Of a DNA stretch of 64,000 nt, positions 3,670 to 61,591 are shown piece after piece. Numbering within the stretch: the first letter of the stretch is position 1; every line of letters starts with the position of its first letter. The notes under the pieces are model-generated. The model saw only the letters and a program-made list of their open reading frames with translations. It was not told the origin of the DNA and ran no database searches. The DNA comes from an archaeon (lineage in GTDB: Archaea > Nanobdellota > Nanobdellia > Pacearchaeales > UBA284): the NCBI GenBank assembly GCA_020343435.1, contig CP070794.1, forward strand, positions 239,558-303,557, read 5' to 3'. The position numbers and the translations under genes were made by a program.

Positions 3670-4374
3670 TTATTCAGTCCTAATCTCAACACTTTTAAAG
3701 AGAGGTTTTAATTCTAGTTGTAATGCTTTAAGTTCATCAACAGAAGTTTTTTTCAATTTTAAGAAAGCAGGATCATGGCAGTTCTGAGGTAAAAATTGTT
3801 GTAAAACAAATTTCTTATTAGCACCATTTAATTGTAAATAAGCAGCAATTTTAAGTAAAGATTCTCTATCAACAACTTTAGGAACAACTGTTGTTCTAAA
3901 CTCATAATCTTTCAGAGTCTTAATCAACTCTATACTTTTTTTAACATTTCCAGTAACATCCCCATCACATACCTTATTATAATTATTAAAATTAGTTTTT
4001 ATATCCATAGCAACATAATCTACTAATTTATTCTTAATCAAAGAAAATAATATCTCAGGATGACTTCCATTTGTATCTAGTTTAACTTTAAATCCCATCT
4101 CTTTAAGTTCTGATATTAATAATGGTAACTCAGCATAAAGAGTTGGTTCTCCACCAGAAATTACAACCCCATCAATATATCCTTTATTTTTTTTAAGATG
4201 TTCAAATACTTCTTCTTTAGGATATGTTTTTAATTCTGATCTTTTTTCTTGGGATATTAGATGACTGTTATGACAAAAACCACATTTAAAATTACAGTTA
4301 GAAAGAAAGATTACTGCAGCTGCTTTTCCTGGATAATCAATTAATGTAAATTTCTCAAAACCTTTTATCTCCAT
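3670..4374 (-). CDS. nrdG: Anaerobic ribonucleotide reductase activating protein (radical SAM)
   Basis: CNFKCGFCHN CxxxCxxC motif and GGEPTL. Lies immediately downstream of nrdD. Confidence 0.9.
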   Translation of the reverse strand: MEIKGFEKFTLIDYPGKAAAVIFLSNCNFKCGFCHNSHLISQEKRSELKTYPKEEVFEHLKKNKGYIDGVVISGGEPTLYAELPLLISELKEMGFKVKLDTNGSHPEILFSLIKNKLVDYVAMDIKTNFNNYNKVCDGDVTGNVKKSIELIKTLKDYEFRTTVVPKVVDRESLLKIAAYLQLNGANKKFVLQQFLPQNCHDPAFLKLKKTSVDELKALQLELKPLFKSVEIRTE

Positions 4375-4382
4375 ATTTCCCC

Positions 4383-6488
4383 CTACCTACTTACAGGTGC
4401 AGGAATTACAGTATGTCCTACATTAAATAATCTTCGCTCCTCAAACTCCTTTTGTTTTCCCCTATTCCAGTTCATTATTGGTCTCAAATATCCCACTACT
4501 CTACTATAAACTTCAGTTACTTTTCCACAAACAGGACAAGATTCTTGATTTCCTTTTAAATATCCATGATCTCTACATAAAGAAAAAGTTGGTGTTAATG
4601 TGAAATAAGGAATCTTTGAGTTATGGGTCATTTTTTTAACTAATATTTTTGCTTGTTCATAATCTATAGATTCTCCTAAAAATGTATGGAATACTGTTCC
4701 ACCAGTGTAAAGAGTTTGCAATGGTTCTTGATGTTTTAAAGCAAATAAAATATCTGAAGTATAATCAACTGGTAATTGTGTTGAGTTAGTGTAATAAGGA
4801 ATATTTCCTCCTGCAGTGATTATTGAAGGGTATTGTTCTTTATCTTTTCTAGCTAATCTAAAAGAAGTTCCTTCTGCTGGTGTTGATTCTAAGTTGTAGA
4901 TATGTCCTGTTTCTTCTTGAAATTGGGTTATTCGCTCTCTCATAAATTTTAGAATCTTTATTGCAAAAGCTTGACCATTTCGTGTTTCAATACCTTCTCC
5001 TAAAAAGTTTTTACAAGCTTCATGCATTCCTACTAATCCTATTGTAGAGAAATGATGATCAAGATTTCCTAGATATCTTTTAGTGTAAGGTAATAACCAG
5101 TTATCTAAATTCCTATTTACTACTTTTCTTTTTATTTCTAGAGATCTCATTGCTAGATACATTAAACTATCCAATCTTTCCAAAAATACCTCTTCTGATC
5201 TCGCTAAATAACCCAATCTTGGTAAATTAATAGTCACAACACCAATACTTCCTGTGTTTTCCCCTGATCCAAATCTTCCTCCTGTAACATTTCTAGTTAA
5301 TTCTTTTAATTCTAACCTTAATCTACAACACATACTTCTTACATCAGAAGGTTTAAGATCTGAATTAACAAAGTTTGAAAAGTAAGGTAATCCATATTTA
5401 GAGGTCATCTTAAATAATAAATCTGCTATTTCAGTATTCCATTTAAAATCTCTTGTTATATTATATGTTGGAATTGGCCATGTGAATACTCTTCCTCTAG
5501 AATCTCCATTTAACATAACTTCAATAAATGCTTTATTTACAATATCCATTTCAGTTTGATAATCTGAATAAGTGTCTTTTTGTGCTTGTCCTGCAATAAT
5601 CACTGGTTGGTCTTTCATATCTTCTGGGACAGTTAGATCAAGAGTAATATTACTAAATGGAGTTTGGCCTCCCCATCTTGTTGTTATATTCATGTTATGC
5701 ACAAACTCTTGCATAACCTGCTTAACCCCCTGATAATCGAGGTTATCATGCCTAACAAAAGGAGCAAGATAAGTATCTACTGAATTAAAAGCTTGAGCTC
5801 CAGACCATTCGTTCTGTAAAGTTCCTATAAAGTTAACCATGTGGCCTACAGCAGTTCTCATGTGCCTTGTAGGACCAGACTCAGTTTTTCCTGGAACTCC
5901 ATTAAATCCTTCTCTTAAGAGCTGATTTAAAGACCATCCTGCGCAATAACCTGCTAAACTCATACCAAGATCATGAATATGGAAATCAGAATTAATATGT
6001 GCTTTCCCTATTTCAGGTGGATAAACATAATGTAATCCATAATATGCCATTATTGTTCCAGCTGAGTGTAAGAATAATCCTGAATGAGAGTAACCTACAT
6101 TAGCGTTTTCATTAACACGCCAGTCTTCTTTTCCTATATAATCTCTGACTACTTGTTGAGCATCTAAGAATGTTTTTTTAGTTTCCCTCATCTTTCTTCT
6201 CTCTTCTCTATATAGGATAAATGCTTTTGCTGTTTTGACATATCCTCTTCTAACTAGAACCCCTTCTATAACATCCTGGACTTCTTCAAGACCTGGAACA
6301 GGTTCAAGATGATCTGATCTCTTTTTTAATTCAGATTCTAAAGTATCAATAACTTCTCTTGTCACTTCTTCTAGATCAAACTTATCAGAATTCTCTGCTG
6401 CTCTTGCAGATTGTGTCAATGCTTGTTTAATCCTATCAGGATCAAAGTCAACAACACGACCATCCCTTTTTCTCGCCTTTTTAATCAT
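4383..6488 (-). CDS. nrdD: Anaerobic (class III) ribonucleoside-triphosphate reductase with an N-terminal ATP-cone
   Basis: ATP-cone start KRDGRVVDFDPDRIKQAL. C-terminal Zn site CRDHG..CPVCG. Glycyl-radical motif SRVVGYLRP. Confidence 0.95.
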   Translation of the reverse strand: MIKKARKRDGRVVDFDPDRIKQALTQSARAAENSDKFDLEEVTREVIDTLESELKKRSDHLEPVPGLEEVQDVIEGVLVRRGYVKTAKAFILYREERRKMRETKKTFLDAQQVVRDYIGKEDWRVNENANVGYSHSGLFLHSAGTIMAYYGLHYVYPPEIGKAHINSDFHIHDLGMSLAGYCAGWSLNQLLREGFNGVPGKTESGPTRHMRTAVGHMVNFIGTLQNEWSGAQAFNSVDTYLAPFVRHDNLDYQGVKQVMQEFVHNMNITTRWGGQTPFSNITLDLTVPEDMKDQPVIIAGQAQKDTYSDYQTEMDIVNKAFIEVMLNGDSRGRVFTWPIPTYNITRDFKWNTEIADLLFKMTSKYGLPYFSNFVNSDLKPSDVRSMCCRLRLELKELTRNVTGGRFGSGENTGSIGVVTINLPRLGYLARSEEVFLERLDSLMYLAMRSLEIKRKVVNRNLDNWLLPYTKRYLGNLDHHFSTIGLVGMHEACKNFLGEGIETRNGQAFAIKILKFMRERITQFQEETGHIYNLESTPAEGTSFRLARKDKEQYPSIITAGGNIPYYTNSTQLPVDYTSDILFALKHQEPLQTLYTGGTVFHTFLGESIDYEQAKILVKKMTHNSKIPYFTLTPTFSLCRDHGYLKGNQESCPVCGKVTEVYSRVVGYLRPIMNWNRGKQKEFEERRLFNVGHTVIPAPVSR

Positions 6489-6583
6489 CTTTGCCCTCTT
6501 TTTTAATGAGATTTTTCTAATCTCTTTTTCTTTAAATACTTTTATAACAACTTACTGATGATAAAGCCAAACCACAAGAAAAT

Positions 6584-7033
6584 TTACCTCTTTTTTGGCT
6601 TTACTTCCTTAATTGTCTTCTTAAATTCATCTATATCTTTAAAGTTTCTATATACTGAGGCAAACCGAATATATGCTATTGGATCAAGTTTCTTTAGTTT
6701 CTTCATAACTAAATTTCCAATTAACTTGTATGAGATCTCTGATTTGTGGTATGATCTGAGTATAGCTTCAATCTCACTGATTACTCTATCAATTTTTTCT
6801 TGGCTTATTGGCCGTTTTTCACAGGCTTTTATAAAACCTAACTTAATTTTATCCCGATTAAATGGCTCTCTTCTACCATCTTTTTTAATTACAGTTAATC
6901 TTGTTTCAATTCTTTCATAAGTTGTGAATCTCTTTTTACATTTGATACACTCCCTTCTCCTTCTAATCGCTGTTTCTCTACTTTCTCTTTTATCTAATAC
7001 TTTTGTTTTTCCGAAACAATATGGACATTTCAT
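6584..7033 (-). CDS. nrdR: NrdR transcriptional repressor (Zn ribbon + ATP-cone)
   Basis: MKCPYCFGKTKVLDKRESRE...RRRRECIKCKKRFTTYERIE followed by an ATP-cone. Same strand as nrdD-nrdG and upstream of them. Confidence 0.9.
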   Translation of the reverse strand: MKCPYCFGKTKVLDKRESRETAIRRRRECIKCKKRFTTYERIETRLTVIKKDGRREPFNRDKIKLGFIKACEKRPISQEKIDRVISEIEAILRSYHKSEISYKLIGNLVMKKLKKLDPIAYIRFASVYRNFKDIDEFKKTIKEVKPKKR

Positions 7034-7244: not shown

Positions 7245-7664
7245 ATGAAGAAAAAAAATAGATCAAAATGGGATGGTAGAAGAAGACCAATTGTTTCCCA
7301 GCGTAGAAGAAGAAGTGTAGAAGATACTCTCCCAAGTTTTTCATATAGACCTTCTGCTGATGAAGTTTTAAGAGTTGCACATAGGGTGAGATATGCTCAT
7401 CCTCCTGAGAACCCTAAAAGATCTGCGATCGCGGCTTGTTTAAAACCTAAGGGAGGATATAGGTTAATTTCTTTTCAAATAGGTAAAAATGAAGGGCAGG
7501 GAGATGTTGTTTCTCTTCCCTTGGAATATGGGGTAGTTCAAGAACTTAGTTTGGACGAGTTTGCTGGTTTAGAAATTCCCCCACCAGTTAGGCAGCAATT
7601 ATATAAAGCAAGAGGACAAAAAGATCCAAGAGCTTATATTTTACAAGTTGCAGAGGCAGAATAA
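7245..7664 (+). CDS. Hypothetical protein with a strongly basic N-terminal arm (ORFan class)
   Basis: MKKKNRSKWDGRRRPIVSQRRRRS... ; CTTTAAAT lies 34 nt upstream of the ATG. No family recognised. Confidence 0.5.
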   Translation: MKKKNRSKWDGRRRPIVSQRRRRSVEDTLPSFSYRPSADEVLRVAHRVRYAHPPENPKRSAIAACLKPKGGYRLISFQIGKNEGQGDVVSLPLEYGVVQELSLDEFAGLEIPPPVRQQLYKARGQKDPRAYILQVAEAE

Positions 7665-7695
7665 CTTTTATAAGTTTAATTTATGTGTTCTTTAA

Positions 7696-8565
7696 ATGAA
7701 AACAATTGGAATTCCAAATGCTTCGAGAATTAGGTATTATAAAACTTTATACAAAGTTTTTTTTGAAACTTTAGGATTTAAAGTTGTAATTTCTCCAGAA
7801 ACAGATAAAAGAATTGTTGATTTGGGTGTTCATAACAGTGAAACTGACTTTTGTTTTGCTATAAAGATCTTTGTTGGACATGTTTTAGATCTAAAAGATA
7901 AATGTGATTATGTTTTTATTCCTAGTTTAGCAGGAGAGAATCCTTATTATTGCCAGTATCATGTTAGTTTACCTAATATTATCTCTACTTTATTTCCAAA
8001 AATTAAAGTTTTAACAGCAGAGATAAAACAAAACGGTGAAAGATTAGAAAGAATTGCTAGGAAATTAGGAAAATCAGATAAAGAAATAGGGATGGCTCTA
8101 AAAAAAGGTCAAGAAGCATGGAAACAAGAGAAACTAGAGCAGATAAGAAAAGAAGAATTAAAGTTCAAAGATAAAAGAAGAAAAATAGCAATTATTGGTC
8201 CAGAAAATTACATAACTAAAGATAAATTTTGTTTAATGAATATTCCAGATTTATTAGAAAAAGAGAATATTGTTCCTGTATTCTTTAATCCTTCAAAATA
8301 CAAAGAACATTATAATCCAGGTTATAGATATAATTGGATTATTGAACAAGAAGTAATGACAGAATTAATAGATGCAATTAAAGATAAGAGAATTGATGGA
8401 ATTGTTTTCATTAGTCCATTTAGTTGTGGTCCTTTGTTCTTGATCCATGAAGAAATAATATTAAAACATCCGGAAAAGAAGTTTTTAGTATTAAATGTAG
8501 ATGAATCACAGAATGAAACAAGAATTAAAACTAGAATTGAAGCATTTTTAGATATTTTAAAATGA
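7696..8565 (+). CDS. DUF2229-like subunit of a BCR/HAD-type (acyl-CoA dehydratase/activase-related, PlsA-like) complex
   Basis: IGIPNASRIRYYKTLYKVFFETLGFKVVISPETDKRIVDLGV... matches my memory of the CoA-enzyme-activase uncharacterised domain. ATGA overlap with the next gene. Confidence 0.65.
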   Translation: MKTIGIPNASRIRYYKTLYKVFFETLGFKVVISPETDKRIVDLGVHNSETDFCFAIKIFVGHVLDLKDKCDYVFIPSLAGENPYYCQYHVSLPNIISTLFPKIKVLTAEIKQNGERLERIARKLGKSDKEIGMALKKGQEAWKQEKLEQIRKEELKFKDKRRKIAIIGPENYITKDKFCLMNIPDLLEKENIVPVFFNPSKYKEHYNPGYRYNWIIEQEVMTELIDAIKDKRIDGIVFISPFSCGPLFLIHEEIILKHPEKKFLVLNVDESQNETRIKTRIEAFLDILK

Positions 8566-9638
8566 AAGTCTCATTTTACCATGTTGGAAATACTTGGATT
8601 GCATTAAAAGCAATGTTCGATAAATTGAAAATTCCTGTAGTTGCTCCACCAGAAATAACTCAAGCTTCAATTACTTATGGGATAAAACACTCTCCAGAAC
8701 AAGTTTGCGAACCTTTCAAATATATTTTAGGAGAATATAAACAATGTTTAGATGCTGGAGCAGATACTTTTTTCTATATTGGAAGTACAAGTAGAGAAGG
8801 ATGTAGATTAACTCAGTTTGGAGTTGGAATGAAAGATATTCTGAGAAGACAGGGATATAAGATTGATGTTATTGGTTGGGGCGATGAATCATTAAAAAAG
8901 AATTACTTCCAGATTAAGAAAGCAGCTCCAAAATTAACTTTCTTGCAATTCACATTTTTAGAATTATGGATTATTATTAAATTATCTTATATAGAATGGT
9001 TAGAAGATTTTGTTAATCAGTTAAGACCTTATGCAATTAATCCTAAAGATTGTAGTAAACTCTTAAAACAAGGACTTGAACTCATTGATAAATCTCAAAA
9101 TGTGTTTTCATTATTCTCTACTAAACAAAAAATTAAGAGATTAGGTAAAAAGATTAAACAAGATAGAACAAGAAAACCAATTCCAGTTATTGTTGTTGGA
9201 GATCTTTACTTAGTATTGGAACCTGCCATTAATAACCATATTTTTGAAAAACTTGGAGAAATGGGGCTCATTCCTTACAGAAGTTTCTATTTGAGTCATT
9301 TCCTAAGAAGATCTGGAAAAGTTATTGGACCATGGGGAAAAAATACTTTTAGATATAAATTCAAGCATGCTAAAAAATACATGGATAAAACACTAACTTT
9401 TGGGACTTTAGAATCTGTAGGAGATACTGTGAGATTATTACAAGAGAAGAAGATTAAAGGAATTGTTCATATGCATAGTTTTACTTGTATGCCTGAAGTA
9501 ATTAATACTGTAATCTATAAAAAGATAGCAAAAGATTTTAATGTGCCTTTATTGTTATTGGGATTAGGAGAGCATCATACAGAAGCTCATCAAGAAACAA
9601 GATTAGAGGCATTTGTTGATGTTTTAAAAAATGGATAA
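8562..9638 (+). CDS. 2-hydroxyacyl-CoA dehydratase D-component-like subunit (HGD-D / PlsR-like)
   Basis: Position and general pattern: VVAPPEITQASITYGIKHSPEQVCEPFKYILGEY and the C-terminal ..HSFTCMPE... Overlaps both neighbouring genes. Confidence 0.6.
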   Translation: MKVSFYHVGNTWIALKAMFDKLKIPVVAPPEITQASITYGIKHSPEQVCEPFKYILGEYKQCLDAGADTFFYIGSTSREGCRLTQFGVGMKDILRRQGYKIDVIGWGDESLKKNYFQIKKAAPKLTFLQFTFLELWIIIKLSYIEWLEDFVNQLRPYAINPKDCSKLLKQGLELIDKSQNVFSLFSTKQKIKRLGKKIKQDRTRKPIPVIVVGDLYLVLEPAINNHIFEKLGEMGLIPYRSFYLSHFLRRSGKVIGPWGKNTFRYKFKHAKKYMDKTLTFGTLESVGDTVRLLQEKKIKGIVHMHSFTCMPEVINTVIYKKIAKDFNVPLLLLGLGEHHTEAHQETRLEAFVDVLKNG

Positions 9639-10566
9639 ATACTTAGGAATTGATGTTGGAAGTGTAAGTTGTAATCTTGCAATTGTAGATGGAAAAAAAG
9701 TAGTTTATAGTTCTTATGCAAGAGTTCATGGTAGACCAATTGAAACTTTACAAAAAGAATTTAGTAAACTAAAGAAAAAACATCCTAAAATTCAGATCTC
9801 AGGAGTTTGTTGTACAGGAAGTGCAAGATTCTTAGTAGGACATTTAGTTGGAGCAGATATTATAAAAAATGAAATAACAAGTCATGCAAGAGGAACTTTG
9901 AATTTTGTTCCAAGAGTTAGAACGATTCTAGAGATTGGTGGTCAAGATAGTAAAATTATATTATTAAAAAACAAAAATCCCATAGATTTTGCTATGAATA
10001 CTGTTTGTGCTGCTGGAACAGGTTCTTTTTTAGATCAACAAGCAGCTAGATTGGGTATTGGAATTGAGAAATTTGGAAATGAAGCTTTGAGAAGCAGAAA
10101 AGGAATCACAATTAGGGGAAGATGTGGGATATTTGCAGAATCTGATATTATTAATAAACAGATTATGGGACATAAAAGAGAGGATATTATCAAAGGATTA
10201 TGTCATGCTCTTGTTAGAAATTATATGAATAATGTTGCTAAAGGTAAGGAAATTGTTTCTCCTGTTGTTTTACAAGGAGGAGTTGCAGCAAATAAAGGTA
10301 TTAAAAAAGCATTTGAACAAGAATTGAAAGTTAAAGTGATTATTCCAAAACATTATGATGTTATGGGGGCTATTGGAGCAGCTTTAATTGCTCAAGATGC
10401 TAAGATTAAGAAAACTAAGTTTAAAGGACTTAAAATAGCTAAAACTAAGTTTAATGTTGGTTCTTTTGAATGTAAAGATTGCGCTAATAAGTGTGAAATT
10501 GTTAAGTTATCTGAGAAAAGAAAACATATTGCTCATTTAGGAAGTAAATGTGGTAAGTATGAGTAA
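9631..10566 (+). CDS. BadF/BadG/BcrA/BcrD-type ATPase (HgdC-like activase) with a Cys-rich C-terminal tail
   Basis: LGIDVGSVS, EIGGQDSK, NTVCAAGTGSFLD and RCGIFAESD are activase motifs including the cluster-bridging Cys. The tail is FECKDCANKCEIV..GSKCGKYE. Confidence 0.85.
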   Translation: MDKYLGIDVGSVSCNLAIVDGKKVVYSSYARVHGRPIETLQKEFSKLKKKHPKIQISGVCCTGSARFLVGHLVGADIIKNEITSHARGTLNFVPRVRTILEIGGQDSKIILLKNKNPIDFAMNTVCAAGTGSFLDQQAARLGIGIEKFGNEALRSRKGITIRGRCGIFAESDIINKQIMGHKREDIIKGLCHALVRNYMNNVAKGKEIVSPVVLQGGVAANKGIKKAFEQELKVKVIIPKHYDVMGAIGAALIAQDAKIKKTKFKGLKIAKTKFNVGSFECKDCANKCEIVKLSEKRKHIAHLGSKCGKYE

Positions 10567-11324: not shown

Positions 11325-11427
11325 ATTATAAAAAATGAATTACAATATAAAAACTTTTCTATTTACTTACTACAATGGTGGTAAATAAGCTTTAAATTAG
11401 AAATTAGGGGTGTTTTTTTGTACTAAA

Positions 11428-11988
11428 ATGAAAAGAACATATGTATGCTATGGAAATGAGAGAAGTTCTGTATTAGAGGCAGCCTCAACTTTATTTAATC
11501 CTCATCAAGATATAACTTATTCGTCAGGAGGAGTCAAAGGATGGGTAAGGGAAGGACAACCATTAGATGAACCATTAATAGATTGCGCTTTAAAAGTAGA
11601 GCCTGCCCTTGAAACTCTTTTAACAGAAAGAAGAAGACGTTCCTTTACTAAACAAGAATTAGAAGATAGTGCTCTAGTTTTAGGAGTAGATAATTACCTC
11701 TTAAGAGAAGTTCTACCAAAAATGGGAATTAATGTTACTGACAAATATCAACCAGTTTTAAGGTTTGCTGGTTTAAAAGCAGAAAGATTAGGAGAAGATT
11801 TAGATTGTGCAAGTAACCCTATTGAGAGGAAAGTTGCAAAATACATTCAGAAGGTAGATATGCCTGCTGGCCAAGCCCATTACTTTAGTTTAGAAGGAGC
11901 TCAATTTTTTGAAAGGACAGCTGAAGCATACAAAGCAATGGTTAAGGATCTGATTAGAATTGCAAAGAGTGTTTCTAAAAATGGTTAG
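11428..11988 (+). CDS. Hypothetical protein (ORFan class), 8-nt overlap with the downstream swivel-domain gene
   Basis: I prefer ATG 11428 over track GTG 11410 because TTTAAATT at 11391 is only 19 nt from the GTG. No family recognised. Confidence 0.5.
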   Translation: MKRTYVCYGNERSSVLEAASTLFNPHQDITYSSGGVKGWVREGQPLDEPLIDCALKVEPALETLLTERRRRSFTKQELEDSALVLGVDNYLLREVLPKMGINVTDKYQPVLRFAGLKAERLGEDLDCASNPIERKVAKYIQKVDMPAGQAHYFSLEGAQFFERTAEAYKAMVKDLIRIAKSVSKNG

Positions 11989-13444
11989 TTTTACTTATGT
12001 TTCAAAAGATGAAAAACAAAGATATAAGAAAGTCTTTGAAAGAAATTATCCCTTAGGACACTTCGATTTACAATTTGAAAGCTTGATTGGTTTCTGGAAA
12101 GAATTTTTTAAAACACATACTTCTTTTGCAGAAGTTTTAAGAGTTATCCTCCCAAAAAAAGGAAGTGCAGAAATCTATTTTAGAGTAGATAAATATTTGA
12201 GACTTTTAAAAGAGTTAAAAGAAAATCTTGATAAGGATAAAACTTATTTTGATTATATAGTTGATCTAACCTTAAAAACAATAAAAGAATTTAGAGATAT
12301 GGTTAATAATCCTTCTCCAATTTTAGAAAAACTAAGCTCCATTAAAAAAGAAAGTGTTCTAGAAGCAATTAATGATTACTTACTCAAATGCTCCCAAGTA
12401 ATCACTATCTCCTGGTCTTTTGATATGTTTGGGGATGCTTTAATTGATAGGATGGTGGATCTATTGAATAAAGAAGGTAAATATTCTGAAGAAACTACGA
12501 AAATGATCTTATCTAAAGGAATTCTAAGTATATTTATCAAAGAGAAAAAAGAATTCTTAAGTCTTATGAGAAATATAAAAAATAAAAGCAAAGAAGAAAT
12601 AAATGAAGCATTACAGAAGCATTTAAAAAAATGGTATTTTATTGGAATGGGGACTGTAACAGAAAAGCCCTTTTCAATTGAAGATTTTGAAAATAAATTC
12701 GATTTTTTTAAAGATAAGGATTTAGACCAAGAAATCAAAAGAATAGAAGAACTCAAAAACAAAGAAGATAAAGAAATCTCAAAATTTATTAATGATTCTA
12801 ATCTTTCAAGGAGACTTTTGGAAGCCATAAATCAAATCAGGAAATATATGAGCTTTAAAAATAATGAAAGAGTCATGCTTCATGATTATACTTTTAAAAG
12901 TTTCACCATTTTTAATAAGATAAAGAAGATTTGTTCCTATGAAGACCACAGATTTATCTTCTTTAAAGATGTTATTTCATTTATTAAAGAGGAGATAGAT
13001 CATCAAGAACTTTTAGAAAGAGCAAAAAGAAGGGAGAATAAAAGATATGAACTCTTGGTTGAAGATGATCAACTTAAAATAAAAGAAATAGAAAAACAAA
13101 AAGAAGTTTTTGTTGGTGGGAATCTATTCAAGGGGCTTGCTGTTAGCAAAGGTTTTATGAGGGGCCCGATAAAAATAGTGAAAGATCCCTCTAAAGAGCA
13201 TCAAAAACTGAATAATGGGGACATTCTTGTTACATCTATGACTACTCCCAATTTTGTTCCCCTAATGGAAAGAGCTGCAGCAATCATAACAGAAGAAGGA
13301 GGAATGTTGTGCCACGCTGCTATTGTTTCAAGAGAACTTGGAATTCCAGCAGTTGTTGGTGTGCGCGGAATTATGAGTAGTTTAAAAGACGGAGATTTGG
13401 TTGAAATAGATGCTGAAAAAGGAATTGTTAAAATTCTGAAATAG
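11981..13444 (+). CDS. Protein with a C-terminal PEP-utilising-enzyme mobile (phosphohistidine swivel) domain and an unassigned K-rich N-terminal ~370 aa
   Basis: C-terminus GDILVTSMTTPNFVPLMERAAAIITEEGGMLCHAAIVSRELGIPAVVG is the swivel-domain signature with the catalytic His. No ATP-grasp or PEP-binding signature was recognised upstream. Confidence 0.7.
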   Translation: MVSFTYVSKDEKQRYKKVFERNYPLGHFDLQFESLIGFWKEFFKTHTSFAEVLRVILPKKGSAEIYFRVDKYLRLLKELKENLDKDKTYFDYIVDLTLKTIKEFRDMVNNPSPILEKLSSIKKESVLEAINDYLLKCSQVITISWSFDMFGDALIDRMVDLLNKEGKYSEETTKMILSKGILSIFIKEKKEFLSLMRNIKNKSKEEINEALQKHLKKWYFIGMGTVTEKPFSIEDFENKFDFFKDKDLDQEIKRIEELKNKEDKEISKFINDSNLSRRLLEAINQIRKYMSFKNNERVMLHDYTFKSFTIFNKIKKICSYEDHRFIFFKDVISFIKEEIDHQELLERAKRRENKRYELLVEDDQLKIKEIEKQKEVFVGGNLFKGLAVSKGFMRGPIKIVKDPSKEHQKLNNGDILVTSMTTPNFVPLMERAAAIITEEGGMLCHAAIVSRELGIPAVVGVRGIMSSLKDGDLVEIDAEKGIVKILK

Positions 13445-29533: not shown

Positions 29534-29644
29534 GCTTCGGTAGCTCAGTGGTTAGAGCATACGGCTGTTAAGACTCTTCTTCAAAATATGAAGGGAGAGA
29601 TCAAAGAAACCGTAGGGTCGCAGGTTCAAATCCTGCCCGAAGCG
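29534..29644 (+). tRNA. tRNA-Asn (anticodon GUU) with a 38-nt intron at the canonical 37/38 site
   Basis: Acceptor GCTTCGG/CCGAAGC, D-arm GCTC-AGTGGTTA-GAGC, anticodon stem TACGG/CCGTA around loop CTGTTAA, intron about 29571-29608, T-arm GCAGG-TTCAAAT-CCTGC. Confidence 0.85.
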
Positions 29645-61491: not shown

Positions 61492-61591
61492 GGGCCTGTA
61501 GCTTAATGGTAGAGCGCTGCCCTTGCAACGATTTTTCCTTTGGGAAAAGCAAGAAAGGCAGAGGTTCTGGGTTCAAATCCCAGCAGGTCCA
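61492..61591 (+). tRNA. tRNA-Ala (anticodon UGC) with a 28-nt intron, located in the 16S-23S spacer
   Basis: Acceptor GGGCCTG/CAGGTCC gives the G3:U70 Ala identity pair. Anticodon stem CTGCC/GGCAG around loop CTTGCAA. Intron about 61528-61555 with a TTTTCC/GGAAAA hairpin. T-arm CTGGG-TTCAAAT-CCCAG. Confidence 0.85.

What the first reader, a model, noticed from the sequence alone, without database searches (positions are those of the whole stretch)
7696..10566. Three-gene split version of a BCR/HAD-type (PlsA/PlsR- or Ger-like) radical reductase cassette in an archaeon
Seen in sequence. Three overlapping genes (ATGA at 8562-8565, 8-nt overlap at 9631-9638) encode three products. They are a DUF2229-like protein, an HGD-D-like (2-hydroxyacyl-CoA dehydratase D component) protein and a single BadF/BadG/BcrA/BcrD ATPase. 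The ATPase carries the cluster-bridging Cys motifs (NTVCAAGTG, RCGIFAESD) and a Cys-rich tail. Established knowledge, from memory: in bacteria these domains are usually fused in one or two large proteins. Members of this family include the anaerobic plasmalogen synthase PlsA/PlsR of Clostridium and the Thermotoga glycerol-ester reductase implicated in ether-lipid formation. Others act on unknown substrates. Inference: a host-dependent archaeon that presumably scavenges lipids carries a minimal, fully split ATP-driven reductase/dehydratase. It could remodel acquired (possibly bacterial ester) lipids or act on another acyl substrate. An ORFan with a basic arm (7245-7664) sits 31 nt upstream on the same strand.
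Basis: partly seen in the sequence, partly recalled or inferred. Interest (0 to 1): 0.6.

Follow-up and report, generated by a model that had tools for sequence, protein, structure and literature searches.

The report
Split PlsA/Ger-like reductase in DPANN archaeon
A tiny, lipid-dependent archaeon carries an intact three-gene version of the oxygen-sensitive, ATP-driven iron-sulfur enzyme that anaerobic bacteria use to turn ester membrane lipids into ether lipids. This split form is common in bacteria and its presence in such archaea is already published, so it is a good but fairly ordinary candidate for lipid remodelling.

Summary
Three overlapping co-directional genes encode A (7696-8565), B (8562-9638) and C (9631-10566).

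- **A and B:** two paralogous DUF2229 proteins with an HGD-D-like C-terminus.
- **C:** one BcrAD_BadFG ATPase with both cluster-bridging cysteines and a Cys4 tail.
- **Fold:** AlphaFold models of A and B match only HadBC, DCCP, Mbd and Bzd structures.
- **Correspondence:** A aligns end to end with the first reductase module of ~1400-aa PlsA/Ger-type proteins. B aligns with the second (PlsR-like) module. C aligns with the second activase domain, including the tail.

The "unusual minimal split" reading fails. The best 150 of 1532 representative relatives of A are nearly all stand-alone ~300-aa proteins. The same A-B-C operon occurs in Firmicutes, Patescibacteria, Actinobacteria and Asgard archaea. 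This scan has also met the module 164 times on other DNA.

Split and AB-fused forms sit across a well-supported branch from the fully fused forms, the class that holds the validated enzymes. Their substrate is therefore inferred, not shown. Lipid-linked neighbours elsewhere (DegV, PlsC, PlsY-like, MMPL) favour glycerolipid esters.

The host genome lacks de novo lipid assembly genes but has Tes, Lgt and head-group transferases. Ger homologues in Woesearchaeota, and the lipid-remodelling idea, are already published.

The parts
7666..7673 (+). TATA-like box TTTTATAA, 23 nt upstream of the ATG of A. It is a candidate archaeal promoter for a leaderless A-B-C transcript.
   Evidence: Read directly from the sequence. 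This is inference only, with no transcript data.
7696..8565 (+). Gene A: the Red1-type catalytic subunit (DUF2229 + HGD-D-like C-terminus), 289 aa. The invariant Cys53, Cys86 and Cys244 (codons 7852-7854, 7951-7953, 8425-8427) are the presumed [4Fe-4S] ligands.
   Evidence: Pfam DUF2229 1e-34. Invariant Cys in a 13-sequence alignment. The profile of split A proteins matches Red1 of fused ~1400-aa proteins over profile positions 2-303, E 1e-54 to 1e-65. The AF2 model has pLDDT 83.6. Its ten best Foldseek hits are all HadBC, DCCP or BzdNO, with probability 1.00.
8562..9638 (+). Gene B: the Red2-type (PlsR-like) catalytic subunit, 358 aa. Invariant Cys49, Cys81 and Cys309 (codons 8706-8708, 8802-8804, 9486-9488).
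   Evidence: Pfam DUF2229 3e-9. Invariant Cys in a 46-sequence alignment. The profile of split B proteins matches Red2 of fused proteins, E 1e-16 to 1e-38. In most, one stretch spans profile positions 4-350; in the rest, two collinear stretches cover it. The AF2 model has pLDDT 90.4. All 19 Foldseek hits with E<=1e-3 are DCCP, HadBC, MbdON or BzdNO.
9631..10566 (+). Gene C: a single HgdC/Act2-type ASKHA ATPase (the activator), 311 aa. Cluster-bridging Cys126 (10006-10008) and Cys165 (10123-10125).
   Evidence: BcrAD_BadFG 3e-44, TIGR00241 6.6e-56. PDB matches are 4eht at 2.8e-37 and 1hux at 4.2e-34, with both Cys aligned. It is the only BcrAD_BadFG gene in the genome.
10471..10551 (+). C-terminal Cys4 tail of C (C281-x2-C284-x3-C288 ... 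C307). This is a family hallmark linker, found after Act2 in fused proteins.
   Evidence: The same F-x-C-x2-C-x-N-x-C-E-[IV]...G-x-x-C motif occurs in most split archaeal and bacterial ATPases (L037 is degenerate) and after the second ATPase domain of all ten fused proteins inspected. C aligns over residues 2-311, tail included, with Act2 at 228-298 bits. It aligns only to about residue 253-268 with Act1, at 184-236 bits.

Best explanation
A, B and C together form a complete, split, single-activator member of the PlsA/PlsR-Ger branch (DUF2229 branch) of the BCR/HAD family of ATP-driven iron-sulfur reductases.

Proposed mechanism:
1. C dimerises and holds one [4Fe-4S] cluster between the two copies of Cys126 and Cys165.
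2. C is reduced by ferredoxin. The genome has a 2-oxoacid:ferredoxin oxidoreductase and a small ferredoxin-like ORF.
3. On ATP hydrolysis, C injects a low-potential electron into the A/B heterodimer. Each subunit of that heterodimer keeps a triad of invariant cysteines for its own cluster.
4. A/B then reduce a hard-to-reduce carbonyl.

The most likely substrate is the sn-1 acyl ester of a glycerolipid. The product would be a vinyl ether (plasmalogen) or an alkyl ether. The archaeon has no genes for building glycerolipids of either the archaeal or the bacterial type, so the lipid would be one it takes from a host or neighbour.

Shown here: gene integrity, domain and fold assignment, one-to-one correspondence with the modules of fused PlsA/Ger-type proteins, conserved ligands, and absence of lipid assembly genes.

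Inferred: complex stoichiometry, the electron path, and the lipid substrate.
For: Family and module correspondence:
- Domain hits.
- A and B align over 99% of their joint length with AB-fused proteins (27-29% identity) and with fully fused ~1400-aa proteins (24-26% identity).
- Profile matches place A on Red1 and B on Red2.
- C matches Act2 together with the Cys4 tail.
- This equals the published Ger architecture BBDHDDH (PMC13159169).

Fold and ligands:
- Fold of A and B.
- Cluster Cys of C.
- Cys triads of A and B.

Lipid link for the split type elsewhere:
- DegV directly upstream (L009) or downstream (L010).
- Two PlsC-type acyltransferases flank A-B-C in a Promethearchaeota contig.
- A PlsY-like gene two genes upstream in L043, a Desulfitibacter-type contig.
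- An MMPL transporter adjacent in Halanaerocella.
- Five bacterial genomes carrying the split cassette have no fused paralogue, so it is their only DUF2229 system.
- In Bacillota, PlsA-like homologues with a single activation domain correlate with plasmalogen production (PMC13274423).

Host context:
- No GGGPS, UbiA, CarS, CdsA, PlsY or PlsC.
- Present: Tes, Lgt, two CDP-alcohol phosphatidyltransferases and a POR.
- A class III RNR cluster next door indicates strict anaerobiosis.
Against: - No split A-B-C enzyme has been assayed in any paper I could find.
- In the Red1 tree, the split and AB-fused forms are separated from the fully fused forms by a branch of length 0.58 with 99% SH-aLRT support. 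All validated enzymes belong to the fully fused class by architecture. I could not obtain the validated sequences to place them.
- The published hallmark of alkyl-ether producers, two activation domains (BB), is not met.
- Neighbours of the cassette in the window and in its closest archaeal relatives are unrelated to lipids and are not conserved.
- Several bacterial loci have no lipid neighbour.
- Two bacterial genomes hold two split cassettes each, which suggests functional diversification.
- The genome encodes Tes. This points to isoprenoid ether lipids in the membrane, and those offer no ester to reduce.
Confidence: 0.55

Rival explanations
1. The machine is the same (an ATP-driven [4Fe-4S] reductase of the DUF2229 branch), but the split subfamily acts on a different, still unknown substrate. 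Candidates are a carrier-bound or free acyl compound, another ester or carbonyl, or a small molecule as for DCCP.
For: - A long, well-supported branch separates the split and AB-fused forms from the fully fused forms.
- A and B share only 24-26% identity with the fused proteins.
- Paralogous split cassettes occur within single genomes.
- Many loci lack lipid neighbours.
- Some cassettes follow spore genes (SpoVA/GerA in L039, SpoIIE in L040).
- The best structural matches include DCCP, a promiscuous small-molecule reductase.
- The literature says the role of PlsA homologues lacking the activation domain is unclear (PMC13274423).
Against: - Every experimentally tested DUF2229 enzyme reduces the glycerolipid sn-1 ester (PMC13159169, PMC12838417).
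- Lipid-handling genes recur beside split cassettes in unrelated lineages.
- A and B keep three invariant Cys each, as I recall for the HadB and HadC subunits. They do not keep the six that I recall for the DCCP double cubane. Both ligand counts for the solved structures are from memory.
Confidence: 0.35
2. The cassette is a 2-hydroxyacyl-CoA dehydratase (HgdAB/HadBC type) with its activator, used in amino-acid fermentation.
For: - C is most similar among solved structures to HadI and HgdC.
- The C-terminal ~70 residues of A and B match Pfam HGD-D.
- Foldseek hits include HadBC.
Against: - The HGD-D matches cover only profile positions 268-342 and fall under the Pfam cut-off, whereas DUF2229 is the significant family.
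- The genome has no family I or family III CoA-transferase.
- C carries the Cys4 tail shared with the fused DUF2229-type proteins. The alignments with HadI and HgdC end before the tail, and those chains are only 270-276 aa long.
Confidence: 0.03
3. The cassette is a bacterial contaminant in the assembly, or a decaying relic without function.
For: - Distribution in the order is patchy: 9 of 201 genomes have a DUF2229 match.
- Beyond the small clade around the window (two members named as Woesearchaeota, the rest unnamed metagenome contigs), the named relatives are bacterial.
Against: - The cassette lies on a single 648-kb contig with archaeal rRNA.
- GC3 is at or just below that of neighbouring host genes.
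- Genes A and B are conserved at 43-59% identity in at least five related contigs, one with the full A-B-C set. Two of these are named as Woesearchaeota and the others are unnamed metagenome contigs that cluster with them.
- There are no frameshifts, and all invariant Cys and the ATPase motifs are intact.
Confidence: 0.03

Closest known systems
Anaerobic plasmalogen synthase PlsA/PlsR (Clostridium perfringens CPE1194/1195; single-gene PlsA of Enterococcus faecalis, Lactococcus cremoris, Bifidobacterium longum)
   Same: - It has the same module set: an HgdC-type ATPase, a Red1 module (DUF2229 + HGD-D-like) and a Red2 module (PlsR-like).
- It shares the Cys4 linker after the activase with the fused PlsA/Ger-type proteins inspected. 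The validated sequences themselves were not available.
- It is expected to share the oxygen-sensitive [4Fe-4S]/ATP chemistry.
- In Bacillota, a single activation domain correlates with plasmalogen production (PMC13274423).
   Different: - It has three separate genes in the order Red1-Red2-Act, not Act1-Act2-Red1 | Red2.
- It has one ATPase, presumably a homodimer, instead of two fused ones.
- Identity to fused forms is only 24-26%.
- It belongs to a separate subfamily on the Red1 tree.
- Activity is untested, and the host is an archaeon without acyl-lipid synthesis.
Glycerol ester reductase Ger (Thermotoga maritima Tmari_0479; Desulfatibacillum alkenivorans SHJ90043)
   Same: - The published architecture BBDHDDH maps as C-C-A(DH)-B(DDH).
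- Ger homologues are already reported in Woesearchaeota and Pacearchaeota (PMC13159169, PMC11868695).
   Different: - The BB pair, conserved in all confirmed alkyl-ether producers, is absent.
- Published searches required at least 30% coverage of the ~1400-aa query. They therefore probably detected the fused archaeal forms (such as the 1563-aa protein in L034), not split cassettes like this one.
2-hydroxyacyl-CoA dehydratases with activator (HadBC/HadI, HgdAB/HgdC) and class I benzoyl-CoA reductases (Bcr/Bzd/Mbd)
   Same: - The superfamily fold of A and B (Foldseek probability 1.00, TM 0.5-0.63).
- Activator C is alignable over about 255 residues, with both bridging Cys conserved.
   Different: - There is no significant full-length sequence match of A or B to these enzymes.
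- The genome has no CoA-transferase and no aromatic pathway context.
- C has an extra Cys4 tail.
Double-cubane cluster protein DCCP with DCCP-R (Carboxydothermus hydrogenoformans, 6eno/7yyl)
   Same: - It is the top Foldseek hit for B and the second for A.
- It is likewise a catalytic component with a separate ATPase partner.
   Different: - From memory, DCCP is a homodimer with six Cys ligands for an [8Fe-9S] cluster. Here two paralogous subunits have three invariant Cys each.
- Sequence similarity is limited to the last ~70 residues (E 0.2-0.9).

Membership tests
BCR/HAD/DCCP superfamily (ATP-dependent electron-activating Fe-S enzymes) | An ASKHA-fold activator ATPase with two Cys per monomer that bridge a [4Fe-4S] cluster | tested here: met
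   BcrAD_BadFG 3e-44 and TIGR00241 6.6e-56. Cys126 and Cys165 align with Cys127 and Cys166 of 1hux and with the equivalent Cys of 4eht.
BCR/HAD/DCCP superfamily (ATP-dependent electron-activating Fe-S enzymes) | Catalytic subunits with the HgdAB/BcrBC/DCCP fold | tested here: met
   AF2 models have pLDDT 90.4 (B) and 83.6 (A). All top Foldseek PDB hits are DCCP, HadBC, MbdON or BzdNO, with E 1e-6 to 1e-9 and probability 1.00.
BCR/HAD/DCCP superfamily (ATP-dependent electron-activating Fe-S enzymes) | Fe-S clusters actually bound in the catalytic subunits | not testable with these tools
   Only sequence conservation is available. The invariant residues are C53/C86/C244 in A and C49/C81/C309 in B.
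PlsA/PlsR-Ger family (DUF2229 branch) | Pfam DUF2229 (PF09989) above the gathering score in the reductase module(s) | tested here: met
   A scores 120.5 bits and B 37.2 bits, against a cut-off of 29.4.
PlsA/PlsR-Ger family (DUF2229 branch) | Two different reductase modules (Red1 and Red2/PlsR), collinear with those of the fused enzymes | tested here: met
   The A profile hits Red1 over its full length, and the B profile hits Red2, in 16 fused bacterial proteins. The matches to two divergent archaeal fused proteins are weaker and partial. The joint A+B query covers 99% of its length.
PlsA/PlsR-Ger family (DUF2229 branch) | Cys4 linker (CxxCxxxC...C) after the activase that precedes Red1 | tested here: met
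   The motif is present in C, in most split homologues (L037 is degenerate) and in all ten fused proteins inspected. C matches Act2, tail included, better than Act1. That this motif defines the family is my own observation, not a published criterion.
PlsA/PlsR-Ger family (DUF2229 branch) | Two tandem activation domains (BB), reported as conserved in all confirmed alkyl-ether (Ger) producers | tested here: not met
   C has one BcrAD_BadFG domain, and it is the only such gene in the genome. Single-B forms are reported to correlate with plasmalogen rather than alkyl-ether production (PMC13274423).
PlsA/PlsR-Ger family (DUF2229 branch) | Phylogenetic placement within the clade of experimentally validated enzymes | tested here: inconclusive
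   The split and AB-fused forms make one clade (99% SH-aLRT, branch length 0.58) apart from the fully fused forms. The validated sequences (Q8XL48/47, Q835P9, Tmari_0479, SHJ90043) could not be fetched with the tools.
PlsA/PlsR-Ger family (DUF2229 branch) | Conversion of the sn-1 acyl ester of glycerolipids to a vinyl or alkyl ether | not testable with these tools
   This needs anaerobic expression and lipidomics.
2-hydroxyacyl-CoA dehydratase (HgdAB/HadBC) | Full-length HGD-D (PF06050) match above the gathering score | tested here: not met
   Only profile positions 268-342 match, at 27.0 bits (A) and 19.2 bits (B) against a cut-off of 28.4.
2-hydroxyacyl-CoA dehydratase (HgdAB/HadBC) | A cognate CoA-transferase in the genome to make the 2-hydroxyacyl-CoA substrate | tested here: not met
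   There is no PF02515 or PF01144 match in the 648-kb single-contig genome, which is 85.6% complete by marker genes.

The most novel reading that the evidence does not exclude
The archaeon has a 'remodel-only' lipid gene set: the split PlsA-like reductase, the tetraether synthase Tes, a bacterial-type Lgt and two CDP-alcohol phosphatidyltransferases. It has no enzyme for building any glycerolipid backbone. It would therefore harden scavenged ester lipids, possibly of bacterial origin, into ether lipids and live with a mixed membrane. The split single-ATPase cassette would then be a shared adaptation of ultra-small lipid-auxotrophic symbionts. Its nearest relatives include a Patescibacteria protein and 1.0-1.2 Mb Firmicutes genomes.
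Probability: 0.25. Interest if true: 0.65.

Novelty: new member of a known kind. Interest (0 to 1): 0.35.

Why it matters
If the cassette does reduce ester lipids, a lipid-auxotrophic DPANN archaeon would be chemically editing membranes that it steals. This bears on the 'lipid divide', on what hosts such archaea have, and on the sources of ether-lipid biomarkers in anoxic settings.

More generally, the split single-activator subfamily is very large: 733 representative clusters at E<=1e-10. No member has been assayed in the literature I could search. This compact, intact archaeal copy is a convenient test case. The idea itself is already in the literature, so the gain is confirmation rather than discovery.

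Tried and rejected
**Validated reference sequences.** I tried to place the validated PlsA/PlsR and Ger sequences in a tree, without success.
- A search with a concatenated C-C-A-B query returned fused relatives, but none from the validated organisms.
- The Sci Adv 2022 paper has no supplements held.
- Jackson et al. 2021 (PMC7812594) is not held.

**Other dead ends.**
- One look-up failed because the protein is not on record (P0039).
- The search for cyclopropane-fatty-acid synthase (PF02353) gave only weak, generic methyltransferase matches, and the family rings in 13 of 14 control genomes. It is not usable.
- Searches of all genome ORFs with DegV and PlsC-type sequences from related loci found nothing.

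**Readings considered and rejected.**
- Hydroxyacyl-CoA dehydratase: rejected.
- Contamination or relic: rejected.
- ORF U as part of the system: it has no homologue in any related locus or in 200 genomes of the order.
- The split architecture as an archaeal peculiarity: rejected.
Full report
**What is there**

- A: 7696-8565, 289 aa.
- B: 8562-9638, 358 aa.
- C: 9631-10566, 311 aa.
- A and B overlap by ATGA. B and C overlap by 8 nt.

The window lies in a single-contig 648-kb archaeal genome. By its relatives it is a Woesearchaeota/Pacearchaeota-type DPANN archaeon.

GC3 of the three genes (0.125-0.18) is at or just below that of the neighbouring genes (0.18-0.24). The cassette is therefore resident DNA, not contamination.

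A TATA-like TTTTATAA sits 23 nt before the ATG of A. A-B-C may therefore be transcribed on its own, as a leaderless mRNA. That is inference only.

**Domains and folds**

Pfam and NCBIfam give the following.

| Protein | DUF2229 (cut-off 29.4 bits) | HGD-D C-terminus (cut-off 28.4 bits) | Other |
|---|---|---|---|
| A | 1e-34, 120.5 bits | 27.0 bits | none |
| B | 3e-9, 37.2 bits | 19.2 bits | none |
| C | none | none | BcrAD_BadFG 3e-44; TIGR00241 6.6e-56 |

A and B are thus paralogues of one another, not a 'DUF2229 protein' and an 'HGD-D protein'.

No solved structure matches A or B by sequence beyond their last ~70 residues, which weakly match DCCP (E 0.2-0.9).

AlphaFold models are confident: pLDDT 90.4 for B and 83.6 for A. 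Their significant Foldseek hits are led entirely by DCCP, HadBC, MbdON and BzdNO, at probability 1.00 and TM 0.5-0.63. This covers all 19 hits with E<=1e-3 for B and the ten best for A.

C aligns over about 255 residues with the activators HadI and HgdC. Its Cys126 and Cys165 fall on the two cluster-bridging cysteines.

A keeps three invariant cysteines (C53, C86, C244). B keeps three (C49, C81, C309). These hold across 13 and 46 homologues respectively.

**Relation to PlsA/PlsR and Ger**

The published Ger architecture is BBDHDDH: two activases, a DUF2229 + HGD-D module, then a second, more divergent one (PMC13159169).
- Profiles built from split A and split B proteins hit the first and second reductase modules of ~1400-aa fused bacterial proteins. 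A matches over its full length. B matches in one stretch or in two collinear stretches.
- A concatenated query covers 99% of its A+B part on those proteins, at 24-26% identity.
- The Cys-rich tail of C (CxxCxxxC...C) is the linker that follows the second activase domain in every fused protein inspected. It is also present in most split homologues; L037 is degenerate.
- C matches Act2, tail included, better than Act1.

So A corresponds to Red1, B to Red2 (the PlsR-like part), and C to Act2 plus the linker. Only Act1 is missing, and a homodimer of C can stand in for it, as in HgdC and HadI.

**Is the split form unusual?**

No.
- A whole-library HMMER search with A found 1532 representative clusters, 733 of them at E<=1e-10. 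The best 150 are almost all stand-alone ~300-aa proteins, with a few ~700-aa AB fusions.
- Stand-alone B-type proteins are abundant in Clostridia, Syntrophomonadaceae, Actinomycetota and Dehalococcoidia, under names such as 'CoA protein activase'.
- The same A-B-C operon is found in uncultured Clostridia and Bacilli, Halanaerocella, Desulfitibacter, Syntrophocurvum and a Promethearchaeota contig. Sporomusa has the order C-A-B.
- Within the window's own order, only 9 of 201 genomes have any DUF2229 match. Between them these genomes show every fusion state:
  - a 1563-aa fully fused protein;
  - a 619 + 853-aa pair;
  - a split C-A-B set;
  - pairs of a B-like gene with C.
- On a Red1 tree these archaeal forms fall in at least three separate places. 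That fits repeated lateral acquisition.
- The window's A sits in a well-supported clade of nine sequences. Two are named as Woesearchaeota and the rest are unnamed metagenome contigs. The nearest neighbours of this clade include a Patescibacteria protein.

**What limits the functional call**

On the same tree, the split and AB-fused forms are one clade, set apart from the fully fused forms by a branch of length 0.58 with 99% SH-aLRT support. All enzymes with proven activity have the fused or nearly fused architecture (PMC12838417, PMC13159169). I could not obtain their sequences to place them. Membership of the DUF2229 branch is therefore firm, but identity of function is an inference.

Evidence in favour of a lipid substrate:
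- DegV is directly beside the cassette in two arrangements.
- Two PlsC-type acyltransferases flank it in an Asgard contig.
- A PlsY-like gene lies two genes upstream in L043, a Desulfitibacter-type contig.
- An MMPL transporter is adjacent in Halanaerocella.
- Five small bacterial genomes have the split cassette as their only DUF2229 system.
- A published correlation links single-activase homologues with plasmalogen production in Bacillota (PMC13274423).

Evidence against, or neutral:
- Several loci have no lipid neighbour.
- Two genomes each have two split cassettes.
- The neighbours in the window and in its closest relatives are unrelated to lipids and are not conserved.

**Host context**

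| Searched family | Result |
|---|---|
| GGGPS (PcrB) | no match |
| UbiA-type prenyltransferase | no match |
| PlsC | no match |
| CarS | no match |
| PlsY | no match |
| CdsA | no match |
| Tes (equivalog level, 510 bits, cut-off 450) | present |
| Bacterial-type Lgt (2.5e-50) | present |
| CDP-alcohol phosphatidyltransferase | two copies |
| 2-oxoacid:ferredoxin oxidoreductase (POR_N) | present |
| Small ferredoxin-like ORF | present |
| CoA-transferase, families I and III | no match |

The genome thus holds only late-acting, lipid-modifying enzymes, which fits a lipid scavenger. The oxidoreductase and ferredoxin-like ORF could feed electrons to C. The NrdG-NrdD-NrdR cluster next to the cassette marks a strict anaerobe, which suits an oxygen-sensitive enzyme. 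The missing CoA-transferases, together with the sub-threshold partial HGD-D matches, dispose of the amino-acid-fermentation dehydratase reading.

Tes cuts both ways. It shows lipid remodelling, but of isoprenoid ethers, which have no ester to reduce.

**ORF U**

The 139-aa ORF upstream has no family match. It has no counterpart in any related locus and no homologue in 200 genomes of the same order. It is an orphan neighbour, not part of the system.

**Novelty**

Ger homologues in Woesearchaeota and Pacearchaeota were reported in 2022 (PMC13159169). A 2025 study of the Black Sea proposed that such archaea modify lipids taken from a bacterial host (PMC11868695). Those searches required long coverage of the fused query. 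They therefore probably caught the fused archaeal forms rather than split cassettes like this one.

This scan has itself noted split PlsA-like modules 164 times in at least 152 other genomes, including a candidate-phyla bacterium, spore formers, Dehalococcoidales and Lokiarchaeum. No look-alike of this exact sequence was on record.

I therefore class the finding as a new member of a known kind. It is real, intact and sensibly interpreted, but neither architecturally unusual nor conceptually new. The open question, what the split subfamily reduces, is worth an experiment, and this compact archaeal copy is a good test case.

**Tool availability**

Noticed in passing
window 57702-58478 (-): A bacterial-type prolipoprotein diacylglyceryl transferase (Lgt, PF01790, 2.5e-50, full length) in an archaeon. 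As I recall, Lgt draws its diacylglyceryl group from phosphatidylglycerol, which is relevant to which lipids this cell holds.
   Followed up: partly
G000:C1:564155-565771 (-), outside the window: A 538-aa radical SAM protein scores as tetraether lipid synthase Tes at equivalog level (NF045702, 510 bits, cut-off 450). The genome has no GGGPS, UbiA-type prenyltransferase or CarS.
   Followed up: partly
window 7245-7664 (+): ORF U is 139 aa with an Arg/Lys-rich N-terminus. It has no family match and no homologue in 200 genomes of the same order. Its overall GC is 38.6%, against 27-31% for its neighbours, but its GC3 is host-like (0.19).
   Followed up: partly
window 3670-7033 (-): An anaerobic ribonucleotide reductase cluster: an NrdG-like radical SAM activase (3670-4374), NrdD (4383-6488) and a bacterial-type NrdR repressor (6584-7033). 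It indicates a strict anaerobe.
   Followed up: no
window 29534-29644 and 61492-61591 (+): Rfam calls tRNAs of 111 and 100 nt that ARAGORN did not report. The second lies in the 16S-23S spacer. They are probably intron-bearing archaeal tRNAs.
   Followed up: no
window 11410-13444 (+): A 494-aa protein whose only recognisable part is the PEP-utilizers mobile (phosphohistidine) domain at residues 418-488. It is preceded by an overlapping 192-aa ORF with no family match.
   Followed up: no
L034, L035, L036, L037, L038 (genomes of the same order): Related DPANN genomes carry the same enzyme in every fusion state: 1563 aa fully fused, 619 aa (two ATPases) + 853 aa (Red1-Red2), split C-A-B, and pairs of a single B-like subunit with the ATPase. 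On the Red1 tree, those that carry a Red1 module fall in at least three places.
   Followed up: partly
L041:2886-9155 (Promethearchaeota contig): The split A-B-C cassette lies between a 560-aa and a 233-aa PlsC-type acyltransferase gene, after a HAD-family hydrolase. This is the clearest lipid-linked neighbourhood seen for the split type.
   Followed up: no
L016:4221-6817 and L017:5393-9092: In one close archaeal relative, A-B is followed by an FMN_red flavoprotein instead of the ATPase. In another, a CTP synthase gene sits between A and B.
   Followed up: no
L039:1-8051 and L040:1419-7110: In Halanaerocella the cassette directly follows the spoVA operon and a GerA gene. In Sporomusa it follows spoIIE. 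This echoes earlier scan notes of a link to spore genes.
   Followed up: no
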